DNA of 32,000 bases from Candidatus Methanofrustulum fimipullorum (GTDB lineage Archaea; Halobacteriota; Methanosarcinia; Methanosarcinales; Methanosarcinaceae), in assembly GCA_012518265.1 (NCBI GenBank), contig JAAYST010000021.1, positions 1 to 32,000 of the forward strand, written 5' to 3'. Shown here piece by piece: positions 7,241 to 25,895 of the stretch. The notes below the pieces were generated by a model that saw nothing but the letters and a program-made list of their open reading frames with translations, had not been told where the DNA came from and did no database searches. Made by a program: the position numbers and the translations under genes. The number at the start of each line of letters is the position of its first letter. The stretch's first letter is position 1.

Positions 7241-7270
7241 AAATATTAACCCTTTTATATGCTGAATGAA

Positions 7271-7326
7271 AGTAATAAAGTAATAAAGTAATAAAGTAAT
7301 AAAGTAATTTAAAGTAATAAAGTAAA
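7271..7326. repeat. Octanucleotide microsatellite (AGTAATAA)n, 4 perfect plus 2-3 imperfect copies
   Basis: Read directly in the divergent yhbY / cdhC intergenic region. Confidence 0.85.
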
Positions 7327-7594: not shown

Positions 7595-7626
7595 TATGAT
7601 TGTAATTTAAGCTTACGGTGATTCAT

Positions 7627-9009
7627 ATGGATTGTGATACTTCTTCAGAATATTGCGGGGAATATATACGCAACAGTGATATATTCATACGATTTGGGGA
7701 GCCGTATCCTGCATTTCAATGTGTATCGTGCAAAGGAGATTTTTTGGAATTTGATTTTTCAAATAATCGAATAAAGATTCGAGTAACCGGACCTGAAATT
7801 ACCGATTTTGTAAAATCTGAAAACGAACAATTTATTAAAGCCGGAATAGGAATTCGTATTTATTTAAAAATTCCAGGATTTTCCGATGATGTTTTGCAAA
7901 ATATCGAAAGTATTATAGAGAAAAAAATCGGGGATTTAATTTCGGAAATAAAAGGAGTATCGCATGAAAATTTGCGAGACGAAATAGTAATAAAGATTAG
8001 AAAGGCGGAAGTTGAAAACGGACTTTCTTTTGAAAAAATCGGATATTGCTTAAGTAAACTGATTTTAAGAGATTACCAATACGTCGATTTCGTATACACG
8101 GAAATAATAACCGACCAAATTTCAGTAAATAAAGAATTGGAAATTGTAAAGCGGATATATGAAAAAAGAGATAAAGCCGCAAAAATGCTTCGTGATGAAA
8201 ACGTTTCAAAATTTTATTTGTGTAAAATGTGCCAAAACGCAACGCCGGAACATGTATGTATTATTACGCCGGATCGGCCGTCCGTTTGCGGAACGATTCA
8301 TTGGCAGGAAGCACAGGCGTTTGAAACTGTTGACCCTTTCGGTTCGATTTCAGGGTTTGAAAAAGGAGAAATTCTAAATGAAAAATCGGGGGAATATAGC
8401 GGAATCAATGAAACTATGAAAACAGAAACGAAAGGCAAAATTAAAAAGCTTTCCCTTTATTCGCTTTATGAAAATCCGCACACGACAGGTGCTTCGGTAA
8501 ATATTATTGCATTTGCAATACCGGAATTAAACGGATTCGGAATAATTGACAGACAAACTGATTTTCCGACAGTAAACGGACTTACGTTTGAAAATTTAAA
8601 AGCTTCAGTTTCAGGCGGAATACAAATTCCGGGATTTATGGGAATCGGTGAGCCTTATTTGTATTCCCCGAACTTCTTTAAAAAAGAAGGAGGATGGAGA
8701 AACGTCGTTTGGATTTCATCAAAACTTAAAGAAAAAGTAATCGATAAAACGGAAAATCGGGAAATTGCGGAAATCATAAAAACAATCCCTACAGAAAACG
8801 ATGTTGCAGATATATATGAATTAAAAAAATATTACAAATTTGATGAAAGGGAAATTAAAGAAATCTATACGGAAAAACCGGAAAATATGAAAAAAATGAA
8901 AATAGAATTTTTAAGTATTCCGATTATCGAAAATTATGAAAATGAAAGCAAAAAACAAAATATTAGAAAAATAAAAATTCCGAATGTGAAAATTACAATA
9001 AAAAAATGA
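7627..9009 (+). CDS. cdhC: Acetyl-CoA decarbonylase/synthase beta-subunit (CdhC/ACS) homolog lacking the Cys-Gly-Cys Ni site
   Basis: Colinear with my memory of archaeal CdhC: FYLCKMCQNATPEHVCIITPDRPSVCGTIHW, GEYSGINE, YSPNFFKKEGGWRNVVWISSKLKEK, and a C-terminal KITIKK tail. GGTGAT SD at 7617-7622 precedes ATG 7627; the track ORF starts at GTG 7618. Confidence 0.85.
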   Translation: MDCDTSSEYCGEYIRNSDIFIRFGEPYPAFQCVSCKGDFLEFDFSNNRIKIRVTGPEITDFVKSENEQFIKAGIGIRIYLKIPGFSDDVLQNIESIIEKKIGDLISEIKGVSHENLRDEIVIKIRKAEVENGLSFEKIGYCLSKLILRDYQYVDFVYTEIITDQISVNKELEIVKRIYEKRDKAAKMLRDENVSKFYLCKMCQNATPEHVCIITPDRPSVCGTIHWQEAQAFETVDPFGSISGFEKGEILNEKSGEYSGINETMKTETKGKIKKLSLYSLYENPHTTGASVNIIAFAIPELNGFGIIDRQTDFPTVNGLTFENLKASVSGGIQIPGFMGIGEPYLYSPNFFKKEGGWRNVVWISSKLKEKVIDKTENREIAEIIKTIPTENDVADIYELKKYYKFDEREIKEIYTEKPENMKKMKIEFLSIPIIENYENESKKQNIRKIKIPNVKITIKK

Positions 9010-9158
9010 TAAAAAATAAAAAAATGATAAAAAATAAAAAAATGAGAAAAAAGAGAAAAAAAGAAAAATGAAAAAAGATGAAATGAAAATGAAAAAAAGA
9101 GATGAATTAAAAAAAATGAATGAAAAATCCATAAAGAAACGAAAAAGAGGAGCGGTAT

Positions 9159-10424
9159 ATGAAAAAACAGATTACGCTTGAATATATCGAGAAGTTGTTA
9201 TCGGAGTCGGGGTCGGAAATTACTGACGAAATTATATTTGGGGATGTCGTTTTTGATAAAAACGATATATCAAGTGACAAATATCCTAAAGCGGTTGAAT
9301 TTTTAGGAAAAGAAACGTATGAAGCCGCTCGAAAATTCGCTGAAATTGCAATTTCTTTAGGCTATGTTCCGGATTCCGATTTAATAGATTTTATTTACCC
9401 CGACAAACGTAAAAAAACATGCGGCGTTTTGAAAGTTAACGAACTTATACCGCAAGTATATAAAAGACAGGAAATAAAATATCAAAACAAAATCCAAGAA
9501 GTCGTATTGGGGGCTACGAAAGCGGATGGCGGGACAAGAAAAAATAAAATTGTGCTTGGCGGAGAAAAAAATGTTTCATATTTCCCGGGCGATGTTTCGT
9601 TTAACGGAAATTATGTATCTCTTGACGTTTTTGATATGCCGATAAGTCTTGCAAGAGCCGTTCGTGAAAGATACGAGGACGTTTTGGAAGATCCGGCGGA
9701 GTGGGCAAAAAAGGCCGTAAAAGAGTATAATGCAGATATGGTTACGCTTCATTTGATTTCAACAGATCCTTCAATAAAAGATACGTCTGCAAGAGAGGCT
9801 TCAAAAACGGTTGAAAACGTTTTGCAGGCGGTAGATGTTCCGATTATAATTGGCGGGTCTGGAAATCCAGAAAAAGACCCTGAAGTTTTGGAAAAAGCGG
9901 CGGAAGCGGCGGAAGGAGAAAGGGTTCTTTTGGCGTCTGCGAATTTGAATATGGATTTTCAAAGAATCGGAAAAGCGGCTGTCAAATACGGTCACGCCGT
10001 TCTTTCTTGGACTCAAATGGATATAAATTCACAAAAGGAATTGAACAGAAAACTGATACGTTTGTGCAATTTAAATCCTGATTCTTTAGTAATGGATCCG
10101 ACAACGGCCGCTCTTGGATACGGTCTTGACTATGCGTATTCGAATATGGAGAGAATCAGACTTTCCGGACTATCAGGCGACCTCGAACTTGCATTTCCGC
10201 TTTCTTCCGGAACCACAAACGCATGGGGCGCACGCGAAGCCTGGATGAAAGAATCCCCAAACCCACAAGATTCCGATTGGGGAATGAGAGAATACAGAGG
10301 ACCGTTATGGGAAGCGGTAACGGGATTAACACTTGCTCAAGCAGGAAACGACTTATTCATGATGATGCATCCGACTGCTGTGGCACTTTTAAAATCGATT
10401 ACGAAAGCATTAGGAGGAAAATGA
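9159..10424 (+). CDS. cdhD: Acetyl-CoA decarbonylase/synthase delta subunit (corrinoid Fe-S protein small subunit)
   Basis: Long blocks match my memory of CdhD: [94 protein letters not shown] lies 6 nt upstream. Confidence 0.9.
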
Positions 10425-10425
10425 A

Positions 10426-11961
10426 ATGAAAGCGACAAGTCCTCTCGATATTTATCCGTATCTGCCTGAAAATTCCGAAGAACTTTTCGACCATACGCGA
10501 ATGTCTCTTGCGCTTCAGCTTATTAATCGTACAATTTCGTTAAAAAGCATAAAAGATAAACTCGTAGAAATTGATCCAACCGAAAAATCGTATAAAGCAC
10601 TTGAAAAATTGTTAGCACCCGCAATCATAGAAGTTTTAATAGGGGTAGGAGAAAACCAAGTAACAATAGGCGGAGACGACGTATTGTTCAGACACAACAA
10701 AACGTTTTATAATAAAACGCCGATTGCAATTTCGATTTCCGATTTGATGTCGAAAGAAGATATGGAAAAAAAAGTTGAAGAAATCGTATCTTTTGAAAAG
10801 TTTTACATCGGAAAAACGATGAAAATAGAAATGATTTCCATATTTTGTGAATCAAACGACCCGGATACATTTGAAAAAGCAACAAAAATAGTAAACGAAA
10901 CCCTTGAAAAAAGCAAAAGAGATCTGCCTCTTGTTTTGTATTCTTACAATCCAAAAGCAATAAGAAAAGCCTTGGAAATTGTAGGCTGCAAAAAACCGCT
11001 AATTTACGGTGCAAATACAGAAAATTGGAGAGAAATGGCAGCTCTCGCACTTGAATTTGAAGTCCCTGTTACAGTTTGCGGAAACGGAGATCTTGATTTG
11101 TTGCAATCGCTTGCTGTTACTTTTGAGTTTAACGGGATTTCCGATATAGTACTTGACCCCGGATTTGAAAATACAAAAGAAGGATTTAAAAATACATTTC
11201 AAAATTACGTATCACTTAGAATTTCAGGAATTAACGGCGATACAAATATAAATTATCCGACCGTATTTTTCGGAAAAATAAATAATTCAAAACAAACAAA
11301 TAAAACAGAACAAATAAAGCAAACAAATCAAACAGAACAAAAAAACAATTTAAAACAAACAAACGATTCTGAAAAATTATTTTCGGAAATTCCTGAATTT
11401 TTGTTACCTGACGAAAACGATATTAAGAATTCTATGTTTGAAACGGTACTCTCGTCTGTCATGACTGTTCGTTATGCCGATTTATTGATTTTGAATTACT
11501 CTTATCCTCATGAGATATTGCCGCTTATTCATTTAGCCGACACTATGTATACGGACCCGAGAGTTCCGGCTTCAGTTACTCCCGGTTTGTACGAAGTAGG
11601 AAATCCTGATGACGAGTCACCCGTTTTATTTACTACGAATTTCGCACTCACATTTCACACAGTAGAAAGCGACCTTTCTTCACAAAACATCGATTGTTAC
11701 TTAATTGCGGTAAACACAGGCGGACTCGGAGTTGAAGCGGCCGCCGCCGGCGGACAACTTACGGCTGAAACTGTTAAAAAAGAATTTGAAAATGCAAACT
11801 TCGACATTTCAAAAACAAAATACAAAACAATAATTATCCCGGGGCTTGCCGCAAGAATCCAAGGAGAACTTGAAATATTGTTAAATGTAAAAGTTTTGGT
11901 CGGACCTACAGATTCAGGAAAGCTTCCGCTGTGGCTTGAAACAAATTTTAACAAAAAATGA
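10426..11961 (+). CDS. cdhE: Acetyl-CoA decarbonylase/synthase gamma-subunit (CdhE) homolog lacking the N-terminal Fe-S cysteines, with a low-complexity insertion
   Basis: SPLDIYPYLP start, VTIGGDDVLFRH, TDPRVPASV, SPVLFTTNFALTFHTVESDL, GVEAAAAGGQLTAE and IIPGLAARIQGE all resemble CdhE/AcsC. The ATG lies 1 nt after the cdhD TGA, and AGGAGG sits inside the cdhD 3' end. Confidence 0.85.
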   Translation: MKATSPLDIYPYLPENSEELFDHTRMSLALQLINRTISLKSIKDKLVEIDPTEKSYKALEKLLAPAIIEVLIGVGENQVTIGGDDVLFRHNKTFYNKTPIAISISDLMSKEDMEKKVEEIVSFEKFYIGKTMKIEMISIFCESNDPDTFEKATKIVNETLEKSKRDLPLVLYSYNPKAIRKALEIVGCKKPLIYGANTENWREMAALALEFEVPVTVCGNGDLDLLQSLAVTFEFNGISDIVLDPGFENTKEGFKNTFQNYVSLRISGINGDTNINYPTVFFGKINNSKQTNKTEQIKQTNQTEQKNNLKQTNDSEKLFSEIPEFLLPDENDIKNSMFETVLSSVMTVRYADLLILNYSYPHEILPLIHLADTMYTDPRVPASVTPGLYEVGNPDDESPVLFTTNFALTFHTVESDLSSQNIDCYLIAVNTGGLGVEAAAAGGQLTAETVKKEFENANFDISKTKYKTIIIPGLAARIQGELEILLNVKVLVGPTDSGKLPLWLETNFNKK

Positions 11962-12127: not shown

Positions 12128-12964
12128 TTGACTCTAGTGTTTAGTTCAACTATAATGGTAAGTACTGCTGAACAAAACACAGACGAGACAGAAGGACGCT
12201 GTTTGTCAGAATTAAAATTAGATTTTGATATTATGAGCGTTAATGCAGAAAATATGTCAATATGGGAAAGAGCAAAAATTGCAGAGACTTTAAGACTTGC
12301 GATTGAAAAAGAAACGAGAAAAGATATTGAAAACAGTCATAGAATGACAGAAGAATCTTATGAAATAGCACCATGTGCCTCACAACCTGTATATCTGGGT
12401 GCAAATACTTCATTTAATGCGGCGGATTATAGAAATAGTGGAACAAGTAAGTGGGGAATCTCTAAAAAAGTAGTGAACTCTTCAGCAGCCACATATAATA
12501 ATACGGTCCAAACATTTGCTTTTACATACCCAGGTGTTGGTGGCTGTAGTGCATGGGCATATGTAGGTCAAAAATTTCATATAATTGGCCAGGGATCTCA
12601 AACAGCAAACATTAGAATGGTTGGATCATACAATGGTACTACTGAAGCTCTGGGGGGTGGAACAGGTAACACTAAAATAACCTTAGTTGTAAAAGACCTA
12701 ACTACAGGAACAGCATATACAGAAGAGATATATGATGAGACAGTAAGTGCTTTAGGTGTTAAGCAAGTAAAAAGAACATTTAATTCCGGAAAAAGTGTTA
12801 TGTTACAAGCGGGGCATGAATATGTAGCGTATATACTGTTAGAAGGTTCAGGAGCAGCTGTTACACTAGGAGAAGGTGGATCTGATTTTGGACCATGGGA
12901 TTATGGACCTTATGACCCGCCGAACGAAGGAGCAAGATATTCAAGAATTTATATAGATTTTTGA
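12128..12964 (+). CDS. Secreted protein of unknown function; the 5' end is ambiguous (likely true start ATG 12085, out of frame across an A8 tract)
   Basis: 278-aa ORF from an artefactual-looking TTG start. The frame stays open back to 12089 and encodes KKIPSKLIPILVILTLVFSSTIMVSTAEQ, a signal peptide missing its Met. GGAG plus ATG sit at 12074-12087, one nucleotide out of frame. Confidence 0.7.
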   Translation: MTLVFSSTIMVSTAEQNTDETEGRCLSELKLDFDIMSVNAENMSIWERAKIAETLRLAIEKETRKDIENSHRMTEESYEIAPCASQPVYLGANTSFNAADYRNSGTSKWGISKKVVNSSAATYNNTVQTFAFTYPGVGGCSAWAYVGQKFHIIGQGSQTANIRMVGSYNGTTEALGGGTGNTKITLVVKDLTTGTAYTEEIYDETVSALGVKQVKRTFNSGKSVMLQAGHEYVAYILLEGSGAAVTLGEGGSDFGPWDYGPYDPPNEGARYSRIYIDF

Positions 12965-13104: not shown

Positions 13105-13800
13105 ATGAAACCATTTCAAAAAAAATATAATTATTTATATCCGCCTATAATATTTGTCATTCTATCATTGTTTGCACAAATATTCGGGTATTTTAATCCG
13201 GAATTTTTGAATTCTTACATTAACTTATTTATACAAGGAACTCTTGTGTGGTTTTTAGCTCCTTTTACATTTTTGACTGTTATTTATAAATTAGACAAGT
13301 TTGAAAGCATAAAACTAAAGAAAGTTAAAAAAGACATTTTAACAGTTTTAAAATTTACATTAATTATAGTTGTTTTAACTGTTTTGATTTTTATAATTAT
13401 AAAATATATTTCAAAAGATAATTACAGTCCGGGATATTTGGAACAAATCGCATACAGCGACCCGTTGAATTTCGTACTCGGATTAATTGCTCTTTTTTGG
13501 GTTTTGGCGGGTGCGGTTGCCGTTAAATTGACCGTATTCATTTTAACATATAAAGATACAAAATATTCAGATTTGAATAAAAACAGATATTGGATTTCGT
13601 GGGGAATTTCGGCCGCCGTATTTGCGCTTCTTAATTTGCAATACTTTAATTATAATTTGATTAATTGTATTTTGTTAATCGGAATTCCTACAATAATTTA
13701 CGGCTTTTTGTGGAAAGTTGAAAATAAACCTGAATTATTGTGGGCGGTAAATCTTTTACACGATTTCATACTCGTATTTTTAATAAAATTTTTAGTCTAA
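13105..13800 (+). CDS. Hypothetical polytopic membrane protein (about 6 predicted TM helices)
   Basis: 231-aa ORF from ATG with alternating long hydrophobic stretches and K/D-rich loops. I recognise no family motif. Confidence 0.7.
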   Translation: MKPFQKKYNYLYPPIIFVILSLFAQIFGYFNPEFLNSYINLFIQGTLVWFLAPFTFLTVIYKLDKFESIKLKKVKKDILTVLKFTLIIVVLTVLIFIIIKYISKDNYSPGYLEQIAYSDPLNFVLGLIALFWVLAGAVAVKLTVFILTYKDTKYSDLNKNRYWISWGISAAVFALLNLQYFNYNLINCILLIGIPTIIYGFLWKVENKPELLWAVNLLHDFILVFLIKFLV

Positions 13801-13989: not shown

Positions 13990-14853
13990 TTAGAGAAGTT
14001 TCGGAACGGGAAGTCCGTTTTCTTCACGGATTCTAATTGTATCCAAGCTTTTCTCTTTTTTGCCGTTTGACAATTTTTCAAGTAACGGAATACCGCCTTT
14101 TCCTTCCAGGTCGGCCGGTTGGGTTTCAAGTTTTCCGTCGGCAATCATTTTGTCAATGAATTCTTTTCCTCTTTTGGTTCTTATAATAACTGTGCTCCAG
14201 CCGTCAGGAGATCCTACTGAACCGGTTGAGAAATCTGCCAATTCCGATGTGTAATCGGTACAAACGTGGCATGATTTTTGCTCAAATATGTGCGTTTCTT
14301 TGAGCGGAACGGTAATCGGTTCGCTTCCGTCTTTTTTATAGACCCAAAGTTTTCCTTTTCCTATATCTGTTTTTAAAACGTCGTCCATTGAAACGTTTGC
14401 GTATTCTTCAATCAAAATTTTCATTGACTGATAGTTGAAGTTTTCCATGCAGAAAATTCCGATAATAAGACCGACTTTATCGCCTACGTGACGGAATCCC
14501 AACGGGTATTTAATTGCTTTTCTAAGCGCAACCAATTGGCATGGTGTTCCGACAAATCCGACTTTTTCAAGACCGTGTTCTCTTACCGCACTTTTTAATA
14601 ATGCAACGTTCGGGCTTATGGAATATTTAGTTCCTCTTGCTTTTAAAATATCTTCTTTTGTTATTGCAACAACAGGAGAAGGGTTGTGTTTATCGGGCGC
14701 GGACGCAACAATACTTCCGTCCAAAATTCCGTTTTCAATTCCGTAAATAAAAGCGGCAGATACAATTCCTCCGTCCTGAGATCTGCTTCTTACATCTGCA
14801 TCTGTTGCTCTTGCTGTTATGATTTCCATATAATTACCAAGCGATTTTGACAT
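13990..14853 (-). CDS. frhB: F420-reducing hydrogenase beta subunit
   Basis: LGNYMEIITARATD...QDGGIVSA N-terminus, GTPCQ motif and a C-terminal CHVCTDYT cluster are typical of FrhB. I prefer ATG 14853, which has GAGGGTGG just upstream. The track start ATG 14868 overlaps the frhG stop (ATGA). Confidence 0.9.
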   Translation of the reverse strand: MSKSLGNYMEIITARATDADVRSRSQDGGIVSAAFIYGIENGILDGSIVASAPDKHNPSPVVAITKEDILKARGTKYSISPNVALLKSAVREHGLEKVGFVGTPCQLVALRKAIKYPLGFRHVGDKVGLIIGIFCMENFNYQSMKILIEEYANVSMDDVLKTDIGKGKLWVYKKDGSEPITVPLKETHIFEQKSCHVCTDYTSELADFSTGSVGSPDGWSTVIIRTKRGKEFIDKMIADGKLETQPADLEGKGGIPLLEKLSNGKKEKSLDTIRIREENGLPVPKLL

Positions 14854-14864
14854 AATTTCCACCC

Positions 14865-15593
14865 TCATTCAATATTGAAAACAGTTGATGAAACCGATAT
14901 TCTTGGACATTGGAATGTGCAAATTCCGCAGTTTATACAAAGATCCATATCGAAATTCGGTTTTCCGTCGTACATTTTAATCGCTCTTGTTTGACATGCG
15001 GCCGCACAAGTTCCGCAGCCCATGCACAAGCTTTGGCTGATTACACGTCTTGCCAAATCAAGTCCGTTTGTATCCATGAACTCTTCCGCAAATACGGCAT
15101 ACGGCAACATATAGTCTGTGTCGCCTTCGAGTGCTGCAAATATGAAATTAAGAATTCCTTCAATTGCAGGAGCACAACCGGGCAAAGCAAAGTCTACTTT
15201 TATAACTTTACCGATCGGCAAGAAAGCCGTGTGTGTCGGTTGCGGGTCTTGTCCACCGCGGCTGAAACTGTTAATTCCGCCTGTTGCGGCACAAGATCCG
15301 AAAGCAACAACGATATTTGATTTTTCACGAACTTCTTTTAAAAGAGCCATTGAATGTTCATCATCGATACATACACTTCCTTCAACAAGAGCAATATCGA
15401 CATTATCGGGATATACTCTTTCGATAGAAATTTTTTCATCCGTTTCAGTAACTACTGTTTTTTCATCAGCAAGTGTTATGCTGTATACTAAATCGATTGC
15501 CTCTAAAATTTCGGGCAATTTTTCATATGAGTCCGCAAGCGAGATTAAACATCCCGTACATGCGCTCAAATGTACATGTGCTACTCTTACCAC
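14865..15593 (-). CDS. frhG: F420-reducing hydrogenase gamma (small) subunit
   Basis: N-terminal VAHVHLSACTGCLISL, plus two C-terminal ferredoxin motifs (CMGCGTCAAAC and CINCGICTFQCP). GTG start with AGGTGAT 3 nt upstream. Confidence 0.9.
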   Translation of the reverse strand: MVRVAHVHLSACTGCLISLADSYEKLPEILEAIDLVYSITLADEKTVVTETDEKISIERVYPDNVDIALVEGSVCIDDEHSMALLKEVREKSNIVVAFGSCAATGGINSFSRGGQDPQPTHTAFLPIGKVIKVDFALPGCAPAIEGILNFIFAALEGDTDYMLPYAVFAEEFMDTNGLDLARRVISQSLCMGCGTCAAACQTRAIKMYDGKPNFDMDLCINCGICTFQCPRISVSSTVFNIE

Positions 15594-15652
15594 ATTATCA
15601 CCTAACCAAATTTTCCAAACTTACTTGTAACAGTACTAAAAATTAAACAGGT

Positions 15653-16147
15653 TTAAAGTTCATCCAATATCATTTCAATTGCAGGATTAATTGACTTTTT
15701 TACAACGTCCGACAACTCGACACAAATATCGGGAGCAGGCATATTTTCAAACTGACAGCCTATTACAACGACTTCAACACCGAAATTGTCATAAACGTCA
15801 CGAAGCATTCCGGCAAGCGGCATATCGTGTGCGTCCATGTGATATTTTGAAATATTCGGCAAGTCTTCAACTGTCAATCTTTTAAGTGTTCCCGGTTTTA
15901 ATCCGTAGTCGATAATATCGGCAATAATAATTTTTTTAACTGCGGAAGTCTCGTCAATAAGAGAAATTATAAAGTAAGATGCGGCAGTTCCTGCATCGAT
16001 TATGTCAATGCCTTCAGACCTGAGTTTCGGTTCGCTTTCTTTAATTTTATTCATTTCAGCCACAACGGCCGGACCGAACCCGTCATCTCCTAACAAAATA
16101 TTTCCGCAACCCAAAATTAATATTTCTTTATCTAAATAATCCGCCAT
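15653..16147 (-). CDS. frhD: F420-reducing hydrogenase delta subunit / hydrogenase maturation endopeptidase
   Basis: MADYLDKEILILGCGNILLGDDGFGPAV start and an internal DAHDM are typical of HycI/FrhD-type proteases. The track ORF is extended to 16234 through low-complexity codons that overlap frhA. Confidence 0.85.
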   Translation of the reverse strand: MADYLDKEILILGCGNILLGDDGFGPAVVAEMNKIKESEPKLRSEGIDIIDAGTAASYFIISLIDETSAVKKIIIADIIDYGLKPGTLKRLTVEDLPNISKYHMDAHDMPLAGMLRDVYDNFGVEVVVIGCQFENMPAPDICVELSDVVKKSINPAIEMILDEL

Positions 16148-16214
16148 AATTTCCCTACAATTTATTAAAATGCCATTTATTAAAATAATGTTTATAAAAA
16201 TGATATTATTAGAT

Positions 16215-17447
16215 TTACCTGAAGTACTTCTCACTTACAACGTTACTTTCTTCATCCTTTACAATCATGTGCGTTGCACAGGATACACAAGGATCGTATC
16301 CTCTAACTACGTGTTCCGCAAATTTGTAGTGATTTCCTACAGTTGCGTGTCCGATTACAGGTATATTCCAAGTCGTTGCAACGATTGAATTGTAATATTT
16401 TATTTTACCTTTCGGATCAATAACTACAGAGTGTGTATTGTGACCTCTTGGAGATTCGTTCATACCTACTCCGACTTTTTCTCCGTCGCCTACAATCGGT
16501 TCTTCGGAACGCGGTTTACCGTTAAGGTTCAAAATTTCCAAAAGTTCCAAAACGCGATCAATTGTTACAATGATTTCCAATGCACGTGCTTTGTGGTTTG
16601 CAATCATTCCTCTTTCATTAAATCCTGAAAAACGTGTCATTCTGGCACGCGGACCTACTTCCATTAAAGATCCTTTGACTTTCGGAATTAAAGTACAGGC
16701 TCCTTTTGCATATTCTTTGGGATATTCATCGTAAGGTGAAGTTTCAGTAACATCCGCCATATTCAACTGGGTTCTGTCACCGTAAGTCGGGTGTGTTGCA
16801 AGCAAGGGGAAGTCGTGGTATCCCAGATTTTCCGGAATAGGTGTTCCGTCTGCGAATTTCCCTTTGTCGTACAAACCGACCATATAATCTACATGTACTT
16901 CTGCCAACTTTTTATATTCAACTGCTCTGGCTGCAAGTTTGTTTCTTGCTTCTTTTGTTATGTTTTTGGCCATTCCTCCAATAACTACGTTCGGCGGGTG
17001 AATTGCTTCTCCTCCTATTGTATCTACGAAGAACTGACCGATTTTTCTCATTTCCTGAATTCTTTTAACGGCTTCACCCATATCATTTGCCGGAATATAA
17101 TCCGATGAAATTAAAAATTGATGGATAGGGTGTGAGTGCATTCTGTTTCCGAGACTTGTAAGTTCTCTTAAAATCAAACCGTCTTCTGTCGGTGTAATAT
17201 TACATGCATCTTCAATTGCTTCTACTGAAGAAACAGAGTGAGCTGTCGGACATACACCGCAAAATCTTGATACTGCAATAGGTGCGAATTCGGCTGCTTT
17301 TCCAATGAGGAAACGTTCGAATCCGCGCACAGGCGTTACACTTTGGTAATATCCTTGTTCGACAATACCATCGTCGTCAACCAAAAGATTAAGGTTTGTG
17401 TGACCTTCATGTCTTGTTGTTGGTTTTATCTCTACTATTTTACTCAT
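16215..17447 (-). CDS. frhA: F420-reducing [NiFe] hydrogenase alpha (large) subunit, cysteine type
   Basis: N-terminal Ni motif [11 protein letters not shown]-terminal DPCVSCATH followed by a 17-aa extension, the expected FrhD cleavage substrate. GGTGA SD upstream. Confidence 0.95.
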
Positions 17448-24266: not shown

Positions 24267-25895
24267 ATGTTAAAGGAATTAAATAAACACAAGAAAATCG
24301 GGTTTTTAACCGCACTGGTTTTAATATCCGTATTAGTAACGGCAATTCCTGCATATGCCGCAACATGGAATGTTGGTGCAAGCGGAAATTTTGAAAGTAT
24401 AACGGTTGCTCTTGCATCTACCGATGTAAACGATGGAGATATATTGCTTTTGTCAAGCGGAACCCACTTGTACGAAGCTAACATATCTATCGGAAAGTCG
24501 GTAAAAATTCACGGCCAAGGTGCAGAAAATACAATAGTCGATTTAGGAAATAAATCATTCCTTCCCAAAAAAGAAAATATCGAAATTAAAGACATGACTA
24601 TACATAACGGTGCCTTCGGAGTTAATTCTCAAGGAACTTCGAGCGGGCTCGTTGTTGAAAATTGTGTTTTTACCTCTTTAAACCACAAAGACGGTATTAA
24701 ACTTGCAAAAGACAACATAATTTTCAGAAACAACACGGTATCCGACATGTCCGATTTTACGACAATTTTAAACGTCACCGGAAATTTTGTAACTATTGAA
24801 GACAACACTTTTGAAAACAACTCAGGTGCCGGTACTGCGGCAAGAATTATAGCTCTTGAAAACGCATCGAACCCGAAAGTTGTCGGAAATGTTATAAAAG
24901 ACAACAACGCCGAAGGAATAAGACTTTGGAAAGCTGAAACATCGAACGGATTAATCAAAAATAACGTTGTTAACGGAAATACGAAAGGAATCCATCTTTA
25001 TGATACGGGTCCCGGAAACGAAATTTATATGAACGATATTTACGGAAATACGAACGATGTAACATCAAGAGGAACGCTGCCAACCGATATTTCATGGAAT
25101 TCCGAAGAACAATTCAATTACGTATATGAAGGAACAACATACAGTTCAAATTTCGGGAATTATTGGAGCACATCCAATGAAATCAACGATTTGAATAATG
25201 ACGGAATCGGAGATTCCCCGGTAGTTGTTATTGATACACTTCAAGACAATTATCCGTTGAAAAATATGTTTGCAACATACACAATAACGGAAGGAAGCGA
25301 ACCGGAAGTACCTGAAGAACCGGGAGTACCTGAAGAGCCCGAAGTACCTGAGGAACCCGAAGTACCTGAAGAGCCCGAAGTACCTGAGGAACCCGAAGTA
25401 CCTGAAGAGCCCGAAGTACCTGAAGAGCCCGAAGTGCCTGAAGAACCCGAAGTACCTGAAGAACCAGAAGTGCCTGAAGAACCCGAAGTGCCTGAAGAAC
25501 CCGAAGTACCTGAAGAGCCCGAAGAACCCGGAGAATACAACACGTCAGGAGAAATTTCTCTTAATGCTACAATTATGCCCGCAATCGAGGTTACCTTCTC
25601 AACATCGAATATCGACTTTGGAAGAATAAGACCCGGAAGAGAAAGTGCACCTTACGGAGTTGACATTATAAATCACGGAACAGAAGATGTTGTAATTACA
25701 GCAGAAGTTACTGAAGATTCCGATGATATTTTCAAAACCGGACTTTGGATCGATGAAAATATTTGGTCTTCTTACTCTAAAAATATAGGAGCGGAACAGA
25801 CTGAGACTTCATACTTCGTATTGAAAGTTCCGAGGGATTACTCCGGCGTTTCAAACCCGACAGGAAATATAATAATGTGGGTGGACACGGCATAA
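24267..25895 (+). CDS. Secreted right-handed parallel beta-helix (NosD/PbH1-like) surface protein with an acidic EPEVPE linker and a C-terminal domain of unknown function
   Basis: Signal peptide GFLTALVLISVLVTAIPAYAATW. Repeated N-x-I/V beta-helix rungs (IIFRNNTVSD, VTIEDNTFENN, PKVVGNVIKDNN, GLIKNNVVNGN, NEIYMNDIYGN). AGGTGA SD upstream. Confidence 0.85.
   Translation: MLKELNKHKKIGFLTALVLISVLVTAIPAYAATWNVGASGNFESITVALASTDVNDGDILLLSSGTHLYEANISIGKSVKIHGQGAENTIVDLGNKSFLPKKENIEIKDMTIHNGAFGVNSQGTSSGLVVENCVFTSLNHKDGIKLAKDNIIFRNNTVSDMSDFTTILNVTGNFVTIEDNTFENNSGAGTAARIIALENASNPKVVGNVIKDNNAEGIRLWKAETSNGLIKNNVVNGNTKGIHLYDTGPGNEIYMNDIYGNTNDVTSRGTLPTDISWNSEEQFNYVYEGTTYSSNFGNYWSTSNEINDLNNDGIGDSPVVVIDTLQDNYPLKNMFATYTITEGSEPEVPEEPGVPEEPEVPEEPEVPEEPEVPEEPEVPEEPEVPEEPEVPEEPEVPEEPEVPEEPEVPEEPEVPEEPEEPGEYNTSGEISLNATIMPAIEVTFSTSNIDFGRIRPGRESAPYGVDIINHGTEDVVITAEVTEDSDDIFKTGLWIDENIWSSYSKNIGAEQTETSYFVLKVPRDYSGVSNPTGNIIMWVDTA
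25299..25532 (+). repeat. In-frame 18-bp tandem repeat, 12 full copies plus a partial copy, encoding (EPEVPE)n
   Basis: Units GARCCNGRAGTRCCTGAR were counted directly from 25299. The variation is mostly synonymous third-position changes. Confidence 0.95.

What the first reader, a model, noticed from the sequence alone, without database searches (positions are those of the whole stretch)
8479..8502. ACS beta subunit has Gly-Ala-Ser exactly where the Cys-Gly-Cys Ni-Ni ligands belong
In acetyl-CoA synthase the A-cluster [4Fe-4S] cubane is held by Cys506/509/518/528. The two Ni ions are held by Cys509, Cys595, Gly596 and Cys597 (Moorella thermoacetica numbering). This protein keeps four Cys with identical spacing (C, +3, +9, +10) in FYLCKMCQNATPEHVCIITPDRPSVCG (8221-8289). 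Counting 67 residues on from the last Cys lands on G-A-S in ENPHTTGASVN. From memory, canonical archaeal CdhC reads HTSCGCFE at that point. The cubane site is therefore kept while the Ni-Ni half of the active site cannot form. That argues against acetyl-CoA synthesis or cleavage and points to a pseudo-enzyme or a new function.
Basis: partly seen in the sequence, partly recalled or inferred. Interest (0 to 1): 0.75.

Follow-up and report, generated by a model that had tools for sequence, protein, structure and literature searches.

The report
Nickel-less acetyl-CoA synthase relic subunit
This gut-type methanogen keeps an acetyl-CoA synthase subunit that still has its iron-sulfur cysteines but has lost the two cysteines that hold nickel, so it almost certainly cannot make or split acetyl-CoA and survives as a selected, non-catalytic partner of a remodelled vitamin-B12 methyl-carrier protein.

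Summary
ORF 7627-9009 (+) is a CdhC/ACS beta-subunit homologue. Gap-free alignments to solved ACS structures put Gly291-Ala292-Ser293 (8488-8496) on Moorella Cys595-Gly596-Cys597. The four cubane Cys are kept. The loss is shared by the whole lineage: about 40 relatives (Methanimicrococcus and two sister lineages) have Gly at the first Cys, and all have lost the Phe512-equivalent. Almost every other family-wide conserved residue is retained, the ACS fold is predicted, and dN/dS is about 0.1-0.2, so this is a selected pseudo-enzyme and not a pseudogene. The gene sits in a conserved cdhC-cdhD-cdhE unit with no cdhA/cdhB beside it. Cultured relatives lack cdhAB and need acetate. I also found that CdhE has lost all four Cys of its own [4Fe-4S] motif, while CdhD and the corrinoid domain of CdhE are well conserved. 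Most likely CdhDE persists as a methyl-H4MPT-charged corrinoid carrier for anabolism, with the Ni-free CdhC docking through its conserved A3 domain. The role of that docking is inferred. Published genome papers list CdhCDE as present but do not mention the nickel-site loss. Ni-less ACS homologues also appear widespread elsewhere.

The parts
7627..9009 (+). cdhC-like gene. It encodes an ACS/ACDS beta-subunit homologue with A2 and A3 domains and a C-terminal extension. The listed ORF starts at GTG 7618. The likely start is ATG 7627, which gives 460 aa.
   Evidence: Pfam PF03598 (1.7e-18) and PF19436 (5e-60). PDB 9c0s_E E=2.9e-72. AF2 model pLDDT 83 with Foldseek TM 0.75/0.81 to ACS 3git_A. SD GGTGA at 7618-7622. 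P0001 is identical from residue 4.
8221..8289 (+). Retained [4Fe-4S] cubane ligands Cys202, Cys205, Cys214 and Cys224, equivalent to Moorella Cys506/509/518/528.
   Evidence: Gap-free alignment. The four Cys are invariant in all 30 clade members and at least 99% conserved in the canonical representatives.
8239..8241 (+). Ala208, at the position of the second-sphere Phe512 (the F in CQSFAP).
   Evidence: This position is F or Y in 84 of 93 canonical representatives. It is S, G or A in all 30 clade members. It co-varies perfectly with loss of the Ni Cys in 43 metagenome loci.
8479..8502 (+). Degenerate Ni-Ni site H-T-T-G291-A292-S293-V-N. Nt 8488-8496 replace Cys595-Gly596-Cys597.
   Evidence: The AF2 loop 290-292 has pLDDT below 50.
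8833..9006 (+). C-terminal extension, residues 406-463, ending ...IRKIKIPNVKITIKK. It is homologous to the tether region of canonical archaeal CdhC.
   Evidence: It aligns with the C-terminal tails of canonical CdhC (P0031-36) and is absent from Methanimicrococcus copies. Its role as a tether in M. acetivorans ACDS is proposed in PMC13370988.
9159..10424 (+). cdhD, the CoFeSP small (delta) subunit with a TIM barrel. It is the best-conserved gene of the unit.
   Evidence: NF003375 593 bits against a cut-off of 488, and TIGR00381 490 against 252.9. It is 79% identical to L056 and 71-73% identical to Methanimicrococcus over the barrel. dN/dS is 0.06-0.14.
10426..11961 (+). cdhE, the corrinoid-binding gamma subunit.
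   Evidence: NF003195 453.5 bits against a cut-off of 306. The C-terminal corrinoid domain is 57-61% identical to all Methanosarcinaceae copies and 78% identical to L056.
10474..10551 (+). Degenerate [4Fe-4S] motif of CdhE. S17, L20, R25 and I42 stand in place of the canonical Cys-x2-Cys-x4-Cys-x16-Cys(Pro).
   Evidence: Alignments. Pfam PF04060 is absent from all clade members, including Methanolapillus.

Best explanation
The gene encodes a nickel-free, catalytically dead descendant of the acetyl-CoA synthase beta subunit (CdhC).

Shown: the two cysteines that bind both nickel ions are gone, and so is the Phe that shields the proximal nickel. The four cubane cysteines, the ACS A2+A3 fold and almost all other family-invariant residues are kept. 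The gene evolves under purifying selection. It is always found as cdhC-cdhD-cdhE with no CODH genes (cdhA/B) beside it. The host is an uncultured Methanosarcinaceae lineage related to the acetate-requiring, methyl-reducing gut genera Methanimicrococcus and Methanolapillus.

Inferred: the protein still holds a [4Fe-4S] cluster and still docks through its A3 domain onto the CdhD barrel and CdhE of the corrinoid protein. The function that keeps the unit alive belongs to CdhDE. Methyl-H4MPT, made from methyl-CoM by the Mtr complex that the relatives retain, methylates the cobamide on CdhE. The methyl group then goes to anabolic acceptors. The most plausible acceptor is the MesC-type methionine synthase, the only methionine synthase found in Methanosarcinales, whose predicted methyl donor is CoFeSP.

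The Ni-less CdhC would act as an accessory. It might stabilise or uncap the corrinoid domain. It might also supply its cubane as the electron relay for Co(II) to Co(I) reactivation, now that CdhE has lost its own cluster. It neither makes nor cleaves acetyl-CoA.
For: - **Ni ligands lost at exactly aligned columns**. G291 is invariant in 30 clade sequences, against Cys in the 93 representatives taken as canonical.
- **Phe512-equivalent lost in all 30**, with strict co-variation in 43 metagenome loci.
- **The loss is surgical.** Of 39 positions at least 85% conserved across the family, 30 are kept, including the four cubane Cys.
- **The fold is kept.** AF2 pLDDT is 83 and TM is 0.75-0.81 to ACS structures.
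- **Purifying selection.** dN/dS is 0.10-0.22 for cdhC, against 0.06-0.14 for cdhD and 0.09-0.17 for cdhE.
- **Domain pattern fits loss of CdhA and catalysis with retention of CoFeSP docking.** The A2 domain averages 48% identity and A3 66% within the clade. A canonical set of equal A3 divergence shows 65% and 66%. In M. acetivorans ACDS, A2 contacts CdhA, while A3 contacts the CdhD barrel and the CdhE N-terminal domain (PMC13370988).
- **The cdhCDE unit is conserved** in the window, L056 and nine Methanimicrococcus-type loci, with no cdhAB in the window.
- **Literature on relatives.** Methanimicrococcus lacks CdhAB, keeps CdhCDE, Mtr and Mer, and needs acetate (PMC11362671, PMC9723798).
- **Literature on methionine synthesis.** Methanosarcinales have only MesC, which is predicted to take methyl groups from CoFeSP (PMC7857596).
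- **CdhE has lost its own Fe-S motif** but keeps a well-conserved corrinoid domain.
Against: - No metal content, binding or activity data exist for any member.
- Methanolapillus has lost cdhC altogether, yet keeps an equally Fe-S-less CdhE. CdhC is therefore not indispensable to CdhDE, and its cubane cannot be the only route for cobalt reactivation.
- cdhC is the fastest-evolving gene of the locus: 53% identity to L056, against 78-87% for AlaRS, CdhD and Frh. This also fits a gene that is decaying.
- No mesC, ramA-like activase or other informative partner lies next to cdhCDE in the window or in Methanimicrococcus.
- Absence of cdhAB from the whole genome of this particular organism could not be checked.
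- dS values are near saturation (0.8-1.7), so the dN/dS values are approximate.
Confidence: 0.6

Rival explanations
1. The gene is a vestigial relic on its way to loss. After CODH and ACS activity were lost, cdhC has no remaining function. It persists only through weak residual constraint, for example because it is co-transcribed with cdhDE or because a misfolded Fe-S protein would be costly.
For: It is the fastest-evolving gene of the locus. Its dN/dS is 1.5 to 2 times that of cdhD. The sister genus Methanolapillus has deleted cdhC but kept cdhDE. The second Ni Cys decays in a stepwise pattern across lineages: GGC, GAC, GAS, GSV, GAV, GSS. The C-terminal tether is lost in Methanimicrococcus.
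Against: The ORFs are intact in about 40 sequences that span divergence down to 41% identity. dN/dS is well below 1. Thirty of 39 family-invariant positions and all four cubane Cys are strictly kept. About 20 new clade-specific invariant residues point to new constraints rather than drift. The A3 domain is as conserved as in working enzymes.
Confidence: 0.2
2. The protein is a neo-functionalised redox partner. The retained cubane is the point of the protein. With the nickel site removed, the [4Fe-4S] cluster sits where the corrinoid cobalt docks. It serves as the dedicated reductant that reactivates Co(II) on a CdhE that no longer has its own cluster. The HgcB ferredoxin is thought to serve the Fe-S-less corrinoid protein HgcA in the same way.
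For: The cubane Cys are invariant while the Ni Cys are lost. The CdhE Fe-S motif is lost in the same clade. In canonical ACDS, A3 docks so that the cobalt approaches the A-cluster (PMC13370988). The window's CdhE corrinoid domain matches HgcA corrinoid models.
Against: Methanolapillus has the same Fe-S-less CdhE but no CdhC. An independent lineage (P0164, site CNL) has a Ni-degenerate CdhC while its CdhE keeps the Fe-S domain, so the two losses are not tightly coupled. No electron donor to the cubane is evident in the neighbourhood. The A-cluster cubane potential and its fitness for Co(II)/Co(I) reduction are unknown here.
Confidence: 0.13
3. The protein is still a working ACS or CO-binding enzyme with an unconventional metal site. 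A metal is bound by Cys205 plus other ligands, for example His288, or the lineage-specific Cys35/Cys38. The protein then assembles acetyl-CoA from external CO or detoxifies CO, as suggested for Methanimicrococcus CdhCDE.
For: Thomas et al. proposed anabolic or CO-detoxifying roles for CdhCDE (PMC9723798). Cys205, the bridging Cys509 equivalent, and His288 are retained. Two sister sequences keep the third-position Cys, as GAC and GGC.
Against: The distal nickel needs both thiolates and the Cys-Gly-Cys backbone, and the proximal nickel loses two of its three thiolates. No replacement Cys or His is conserved across the clade. Cys35 and Cys38 occur only in the window and P0002 and lie in the A2 domain. 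Phe512 is lost. The protein scores below the curated equivalog cut-offs. Cultured carriers of the same variant need acetate. No verified ACS lacking Cys-Gly-Cys was found in the literature searched.
Confidence: 0.05
4. The feature is a sequencing or assembly artefact or a chance local variant in one MAG.
For: None beyond the fact that the window is of metagenomic origin.
Against: An identical protein occurs in an independent run. The same substitution is seen in isolate genomes of M. blatticola, M. stummii, M. hongohii and M. hacksteinii and in about ten further metagenome contigs.
Confidence: 0.01

Closest known systems
Canonical archaeal ACDS beta subunit CdhC (Methanosarcina thermophila, PDB 9c0s/9c0t; M. 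acetivorans ACDS)
   Same: It has the same two-domain A2+A3 architecture, and in the window lineage the same C-terminal extension. The cubane motif C-x2-C-x8-C-x9-C is the same. The conserved blocks PHT, IPE-x-NG-x-G, G-x-Q-x-x-GF-x-G and GGW-x-x-VVW are shared. It lies directly upstream of cdhD-cdhE.
   Different: Cys-Gly-Cys is replaced by Gly-Ala-Ser. The Phe of CQSFAP is replaced by Ala. The F after the motif is replaced by Val. No cdhA/cdhB lie upstream. The A2 domain has diverged unusually far. The protein scores below the TIGR00316 and NF003379 cut-offs.
CdhCDE of Methanimicrococcus blatticola and relatives (Thomas et al. 2021, PMC9723798; Protasov et al. 2024, PMC11362671)
   Same: These are homologous cdhC-cdhD-cdhE units without cdhAB, in gut-associated, methyl-reducing, acetate-requiring Methanosarcinaceae. 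They show the same Cys-to-Gly change at the first Ni Cys, the same loss of the Phe, and the same loss of the CdhE Fe-S motif.
   Different: Identity to the window protein is only 41-44%. The Methanimicrococcus copies read G-S/A-V/S-F and have lost the C-terminal extension. The window lineage (the window, P0002 and P0003) keeps the extension, has different flanking genes (yhbY/alaS) and reads GAS, GAC or GGC. The published papers count CdhC as present and propose anabolic or CO-detoxifying roles. A term search of those papers found no mention of nickel, the A-cluster or cysteine ligands.
Incomplete Wood-Ljungdahl pathway of Dehalococcoides mccartyi (AcsB plus CoFeSP without CODH; Zhuang et al. 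2014, as described in PMC7857596)
   Same: ACS and the corrinoid protein are retained without CODH, and the module is turned to one-carbon anabolism. [quoted passage not shown]
   Different: In Dehalococcoides the ACS is thought to be catalytically active, cleaving acetyl-CoA to provide the methyl group. Here the Ni site is destroyed, so the methyl group must come from methyl-H4MPT rather than from acetyl-CoA. I did not check the Dehalococcoides AcsB sequence here.
HgcA/HgcB mercury-methylation pair
   Same: HgcA is a corrinoid protein related to CdhE/CdhD that has no Fe-S cluster of its own and works with a separate Fe-S protein. The window's CdhE C-terminal domain matches HgcA corrinoid models. 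The evolutionary link is discussed in bioRxiv 10.1101/2022.11.21.517362, which was listed but not read.
   Different: HgcA is membrane-anchored and uses a Cys as cobalt ligand, and HgcB is a ferredoxin unrelated to ACS. This is an analogy only, and neither window protein is a member of those families.
Ni-depleted or Zn/Cu-substituted ACS (e.g. the NiZn form in PDB 1oao)
   Same: These show that the ACS fold and cubane persist without a functional Ni-Ni pair and that such forms are inactive. This rests on established biochemistry and on the 1oao title.
   Different: Those are metal-occupancy states of a protein with intact ligands. Here the ligands themselves are removed genetically and the state is fixed in a lineage.

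Membership tests
Acetyl-CoA synthase / ACDS beta subunit (CdhC, AcsB core) | Homology and fold of the A2 and A3 domains (Pfam PF03598 + PF19436) | tested here: met
   PF19436 5e-60 and PF03598 1.7e-18. The AF2 model matches ACS structures with TM 0.75-0.81.
Acetyl-CoA synthase / ACDS beta subunit (CdhC, AcsB core) | Four Cys that ligate the A-cluster [4Fe-4S] cubane (Moorella Cys506/509/518/528) | tested here: met
   C202, C205, C214 and C224 align without gaps and are invariant in the clade. Actual cluster binding was not testable.
Acetyl-CoA synthase / ACDS beta subunit (CdhC, AcsB core) | Cys-Gly-Cys motif that ligates the proximal and distal Ni (Cys595-Gly596-Cys597) | tested here: not met
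   Gly291-Ala292-Ser293 occupy these positions. There is no Cys-x-Cys elsewhere in the protein.
Acetyl-CoA synthase / ACDS beta subunit (CdhC, AcsB core) | Second-sphere aromatic residue over the proximal Ni (Phe512 of CQSFAP) | tested here: not met
   The window has Ala208. The position is F or Y in 84 of 93 canonical representatives and never aromatic in the clade.
Acetyl-CoA synthase / ACDS beta subunit (CdhC, AcsB core) | Score above the curated equivalog or family cut-offs (TIGR00316 cdhC; NF003379) | tested here: not met
   313.2 bits against a cut-off of 355.95, and 355.5 against 372.
Acetyl-CoA synthase / ACDS beta subunit (CdhC, AcsB core) | Genomic association with CODH subunits cdhA/cdhB | tested here: inconclusive
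   None is found in the 32-kb window or in the syntenic L056, and cdhC is preceded by divergent yhbY/alaS. Relatives lack cdhAB genome-wide according to PMC11362671. The rest of this organism's genome could not be searched.
Acetyl-CoA synthase / ACDS beta subunit (CdhC, AcsB core) | Acetyl-CoA synthesis or cleavage activity, Ni content and the NiFeC EPR signal | not testable with these tools
   This needs biochemistry on purified protein.
Corrinoid iron-sulfur protein (CoFeSP; CdhE/CdhD = AcsC/AcsD) | CdhD TIM-barrel subunit | tested here: met
   TIGR00381 490 bits against 252.9, and NF003375 593 against 488.
Corrinoid iron-sulfur protein (CoFeSP; CdhE/CdhD = AcsC/AcsD) | CdhE barrel plus C-terminal corrinoid-binding domain | tested here: met
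   NF003195 453.5 bits against 306. The corrinoid domain is 57-61% identical to canonical Methanosarcinaceae CdhE. Cobamide binding itself was not testable.
Corrinoid iron-sulfur protein (CoFeSP; CdhE/CdhD = AcsC/AcsD) | N-terminal [4Fe-4S] motif Cys-x2-Cys-x4-Cys-x16-Cys-Pro in CdhE (Pfam PF04060) | tested here: not met
   S17, L20, R25 and I42 replace the four Cys. PF04060 is absent from the precomputed domains of all clade members.

The most novel reading that the evidence does not exclude
Ni-free ACS beta subunits may be a functional protein class of their own. They would be Fe-S 'docking' subunits derived from acetyl-CoA synthase that service corrinoid methyl carriers, by reductive reactivation or uncapping, in organisms that have abandoned CO chemistry. 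On this reading the window protein, the Methanimicrococcus clade and the many other cubane-only ACS homologues are members or convergent examples. Those homologues make up about one third of the 50%-identity cluster representatives and occur in Chloroflexota, Omnitrophota, Geoglobus and marine archaea. If so, published metabolic reconstructions that score 'CdhC/AcsB present' as evidence of a Wood-Ljungdahl capability are systematically over-calling the pathway.
Probability: 0.25. Interest if true: 0.75.

Novelty: new variant of a known kind. Interest (0 to 1): 0.6.

Why it matters
- **It corrects how these genomes are read.** CdhC is counted as present in gut Methanosarcinaceae and has been given anabolic or CO-detoxifying roles. 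The sequence shows it cannot carry the Ni-Ni site, so those roles are not tenable as stated.
- **It isolates the corrinoid module.** CdhDE, stripped of its Fe-S cluster, is the part selection really keeps. This makes an open question testable in cultured Methanimicrococcus: what is the physiological methyl donor of the MesC methionine synthase in Methanosarcinales?
- **It offers a natural knock-out of the A-cluster nickel site.** The fold and cubane are retained, which is useful for metalloenzyme work.
- **It is a warning for annotation.** In the broader survey, 44 of 128 cubane-bearing ACS-family cluster representatives lack one or both Ni cysteines. Domain-level annotation of ACS in metagenomes may therefore overstate Wood-Ljungdahl potential.

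Tried and rejected
- **Alternative Ni ligands.** I inventoried all Cys and His. There are nine Cys and no CxC. The CxxC at 35-38 lies in the A2 domain and is shared only with P0002. Rejected as a substitute site.
- **Artefact.** Rejected, because an identical protein comes from an independent run and the change is clade-wide.
- **Pseudogene.** Rejected on intact ORFs and dN/dS of 0.1-0.2, although dS is near saturation.
- **Neighbourhood clues to function.** The window flanks carry FeoB, DUF6935, AlaRS, YhbY, two ORFs with no family match, Frh hydrogenase, SulP, Pst and mevalonate-pathway genes. The Methanimicrococcus flanks carry QueC, NMD3, TFE, proteasome and FttA genes. All are housekeeping genes. 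No mesC, ramA, cooC/acsF or cdhAB was found, so the neighbourhoods are uninformative.
- **Compensation idea** (the CdhC cubane replaces the lost CdhE cluster). Tested by looking for correlated loss. Methanolapillus lacks CdhC but has the same Fe-S-less CdhE. P0164 has a degenerate CdhC with an Fe-S-bearing CdhE. The idea is weakened and kept only as a rival.
- **Closer relatives of the window lineage.** The species is absent from GTDB representative genomes, with a best hit of 43%. A single-protein scan of JGI metagenomes found nothing. The profile scan found only Methanimicrococcus-type and canonical copies.
- **Literature.** Searches for a prior report of Ni-ligand loss in CdhC/ACS found none. 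The library covers only open-access papers.
- **Residue-level superposition.** The tools return no coordinates for the AF2 model, so I could not superpose it on an ACS crystal structure. Only global TM-scores and per-residue pLDDT were available.
Full report
**1. What is in the sequence.** The listed ORF 7618-9009 (+) encodes a 463-aa protein. A GGTGA Shine-Dalgarno motif at 7618-7622 points to ATG 7627 as the real start. That gives the 460-aa protein P0001, which was recovered 100% identical from an independent public run. Pfam assigns both ACS/CdhC domains: PF03598 at 1.7e-18 and PF19436 at 5e-60. The two genes directly downstream are cdhD (9159-10424) and cdhE (10426-11961), and both score well above NCBIfam's curated cut-offs. 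The CdhC-like protein falls below its own cut-offs, at 355.5 against 372 for NF003379 and 313.2 against 355.95 for TIGR00316.

phmmer against all PDB chains gives Methanosarcina ACDS beta (9c0s_E, E=2.9e-72) and the bacterial ACS structures (about 1e-53). The alignment is gap-free from residue 215 to 317. It sets C202/C205/C214/C224 equal to Moorella Cys506/509/518/528, and G291-A292-S293 (nt 8488-8496) equal to Cys595-Gly596-Cys597. Methanosarcina reads PHTSCGCFE where the window reads PHTTGASVN. The protein has nine Cys in all and no Cys-x-Cys. For the second, I found no verified ACS that lacks the motif in the searchable literature.

**3. It is a lineage trait, not a one-off.** The closest homologues are:
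- P0002 (53-57% identity, from a syntenic contig, L056);
- P0003 (41%, also preceded by yhbY);
- about 27 Methanimicrococcus-type CdhC sequences (41-44%), including isolates of M. blatticola, M. stummii, M. hongohii and M. hacksteinii.

All of them have Gly at the first Ni Cys. The second Ni Cys is S in the window, C in P0002 (GAC) and P0003 (GGC), and V or S in Methanimicrococcus. Canonical sequences in the same searches read SCGCF. The Phe512-equivalent of CQSFAP is F or Y in 84 of 93 canonical representatives, and it is S, G or A in all 30 clade members. In 43 further metagenome loci the two states co-vary without exception: CQSFAP with SCGCF, against CQ[IN][SG]xP with TG[SA][VS]F.

**4. 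The loss is surgical and the gene is under selection.** Of 39 positions that are at least 85% conserved across the canonical cluster representatives, the clade keeps 30. These include all four cubane Cys and the PHT, IPE-NG-G-R, G-Q-GF-G, S-F, GG and W blocks. Apart from a few positions near the termini, the changed positions are the two Ni Cys and Gly321. About 20 residues are invariant in the clade but rare in canonical proteins, which suggests new constraints. An AlphaFold2 model built on the clade alignment has mean pLDDT 83 and pTM 0.72, and it matches ACS structures with TM 0.75-0.81. Only the termini, a linker and residues 290-292, the former Ni loop, fall below pLDDT 50. Nei-Gojobori dN/dS among Methanimicrococcus loci is 0.10-0.22 for cdhC, 0.06-0.14 for cdhD and 0.09-0.17 for cdhE. 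For the window against L056 the values are 0.20, 0.06 and 0.11. dS is near saturation at 0.8-2.3, so these are rough figures, but all are far below 1. cdhC is nevertheless the fastest-evolving gene of the locus. It is 53% identical between the window and L056, against 64% for CdhE and 75-87% for AlaRS, CdhD and FrhABG.

**5. Which part of the protein is still constrained.** Within the clade the A2 domain averages 48% identity and the A3 domain 66%. A canonical set with the same A3 divergence shows 65% and 66%. A 2026 preprint on M. acetivorans ACDS (PMC13370988) reports three relevant things. A2 contacts CdhA. A3 contacts the CdhD barrel and the CdhE N-terminal domain, bringing the cobalt near the A-cluster. 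The CdhC C-terminal tail (residues 401-470) is proposed to tether ACS to a CoFeSP scaffold. The clade pattern of relaxed A2 and constrained A3 is what one would expect if the CdhA partner and catalysis are gone while docking to CdhDE persists. The window lineage also keeps the C-terminal tail, and Methanimicrococcus has lost it.

**6. Context.** The 32-kb window carries no cdhA or cdhB. Upstream of cdhC lie divergent yhbY and alaS, and downstream lie two ORFs with no family match and then the frhBGDA genes. L056 is syntenic throughout. In nine Methanimicrococcus-type loci the cdhC-cdhD-cdhE unit is conserved, but its neighbours are unrelated housekeeping genes. The window's AlaRS is 100% identical to an NCBI protein labelled 'MAG: Methanosarcinaceae archaeon'. 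It is 67% identical to Methanimicrococcus and Methanolapillus, and 60-62% identical to other Methanosarcinaceae. No species-representative genome contains this lineage. The organism is therefore an uncultured relative of the 'intestinal clade'. For that clade the literature reports the following: loss of cdhAB and of most of the methyl branch, retention of Mtr and Mer, an acetate requirement, CdhCDE in Methanimicrococcus and only CdhDE in Methanolapillus (PMC9723798, PMC11362671). Term searches of both papers found no mention of nickel, the A-cluster or cysteine ligands.

**7. A second loss in the same unit.** Canonical CdhE begins ...TNCGECGEATCMAFA...(D/Q)CPP, which is the [4Fe-4S] motif. 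The window has ...NSEELFDHTRMSLA...SIKDK, with S17, L20, R25 and I42 in place of the four Cys. L056 and Methanimicrococcus keep only the first Cys, and Methanolapillus keeps none. Pfam PF04060 is missing from every clade member. The corrinoid domain remains the best-conserved part of CdhE, at 57-61% identity to all Methanosarcinaceae. CdhD is the best-conserved gene of the unit.

**8. Most likely mechanism.**
- *Shown:* the Ni-Ni site cannot form, the rest of the protein is maintained by selection, and it travels with CdhDE and without CODH.
- *Inferred:* the retained activity is that of CdhDE, which is methyl transfer between methyl-H4MPT and the cobamide. That activity of the gamma-delta component is established biochemistry of ACDS, which I cite from knowledge.
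- *The likely acceptor:* Price et al. found that Methanosarcinales possess only the MesC-type core methionine synthase, and they predict CoFeSP as its methyl donor (PMC7857596). This gives a concrete reason to keep CdhDE after ACS and CODH are lost. It also fits the retention of Mtr and Mer for anabolism.
- *The role of CdhC:* the Ni-free protein probably still binds its cubane and docks via A3. It could stabilise or open the corrinoid protein, or relay electrons for Co(II) reactivation. This last step is speculative. Methanolapillus manages without CdhC. An independent lineage (P0164, site C-N-L, in a cdhCDE unit without cdhAB) keeps the CdhE Fe-S domain.

I put about 0.9 on 'not an acetyl-CoA synthase', about 0.7 on 'selected accessory rather than vestige', and about 0.3 on any one specific accessory role.

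**9. Wider picture.** A full scan of 1.84 billion cluster representatives found 435 ACS-family proteins at E ≤ 0.001. Of the best 148 representatives other than the window's own protein (P0001) and P0020, 128 have all four cubane Cys. Of those 128, 84 have both Ni Cys, 20 have one and 24 have none. Alignment of the most distant ones is less certain. Named examples come from Tara marine assemblies, Geoglobus, Chloroflexota and Omnitrophota, and all are annotated as ACS subunits or as hypothetical proteins. Cubane-only ACS homologues therefore seem common and uncharacterised.

**10. Verdict.** The protein is homologous to CdhC but fails three tested defining features of a working ACS: the Ni ligands, the shielding Phe and the curated score cut-off. 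It should not be filed as an acetyl-CoA synthase. It is a new, apparently unreported variant of a known family. Interest is moderate to high, at 0.6. It revises published metabolic models of gut Methanosarcinaceae. It points to an ACS-independent role for the corrinoid protein that can be tested in cultured relatives. It also warns that ACS domain hits alone over-call the Wood-Ljungdahl pathway.

Noticed in passing
window 10474-10551 (cdhE residues 17-42): The four Cys of the CdhE N-terminal [4Fe-4S] motif are replaced by S17, L20, R25 and I42. The loss is shared by Methanimicrococcus, Methanolapillus and L056, and Pfam PF04060 is absent from all of them. The 'corrinoid iron-sulfur protein' of this clade therefore has no iron-sulfur site of its own.
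   Followed up: yes
window 11281-11389 (cdhE residues 286-321): A Q/N/K/T-rich low-complexity insert (NNSKQTNKTEQIKQTNQTEQKNNLKQTNDSEK...) lies in the linker between the CdhE barrel and the corrinoid domain. It is encoded by a 13/27-nt periodic A/C-rich array. It is absent or much shorter in relatives.
   Followed up: partly
window 7269-7325 and 8997-9128: There is an 8-nt tandem repeat AAAGTAAT (6.9 copies) in the yhbY/cdhC intergenic region. A long A-rich 9/18-nt tandem array runs from the cdhC stop codon to just upstream of cdhD. Their function is unknown. They could be promoter, UTR or slippage-prone sequence.
   Followed up: no
window 7720-7731 (CdhC residues 35-38) and residue 144: A Cys-x-x-Cys pair (C35, C38) and C144 in the A2 domain are shared only by the window protein and its closest relative P0002. 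No other clade member and no canonical CdhC has them. This may be a lineage-specific metal or disulfide site.
   Followed up: partly
window 8833-9006; alignment A1: The window lineage (the window, P0002 and P0003) keeps the archaeal CdhC C-terminal extension, ending in a conserved K-I-x-x-x-x-I-x-I-K-K-like strand. All Methanimicrococcus copies have lost it.
   Followed up: partly
proteins P0159-P0306; L059; L099: About one third of ACS-family 50%-identity cluster representatives that keep all four cubane Cys lack one or both Ni cysteines. Sources include Geoglobus, Chloroflexota, Omnitrophota and marine assemblies. One of them, P0164 in L059, again sits in a cdhC-cdhD-cdhE unit without cdhAB.
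   Followed up: partly
window 12128-12964 and 13105-13800: Two ORFs of 278 and 231 aa lie directly downstream of cdhE and have no Pfam or NCBIfam match. They are not conserved at this position in the syntenic contig L056, which carries different genes there.
   Followed up: no
window 24267-25895: A 542-aa protein has right-handed beta-helix/NosD repeats. It may be a surface or adhesin-like protein. Proteins of this type are often expanded in host-associated methanogens.
   Followed up: no
window 13990-17447 (-): A complete F420-reducing hydrogenase cluster frhA-D-G-B, including the maturation protease, is present. The organism therefore still uses nickel enzymes, and the loss of the ACS nickel site is not part of a general abandonment of nickel.
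   Followed up: partly
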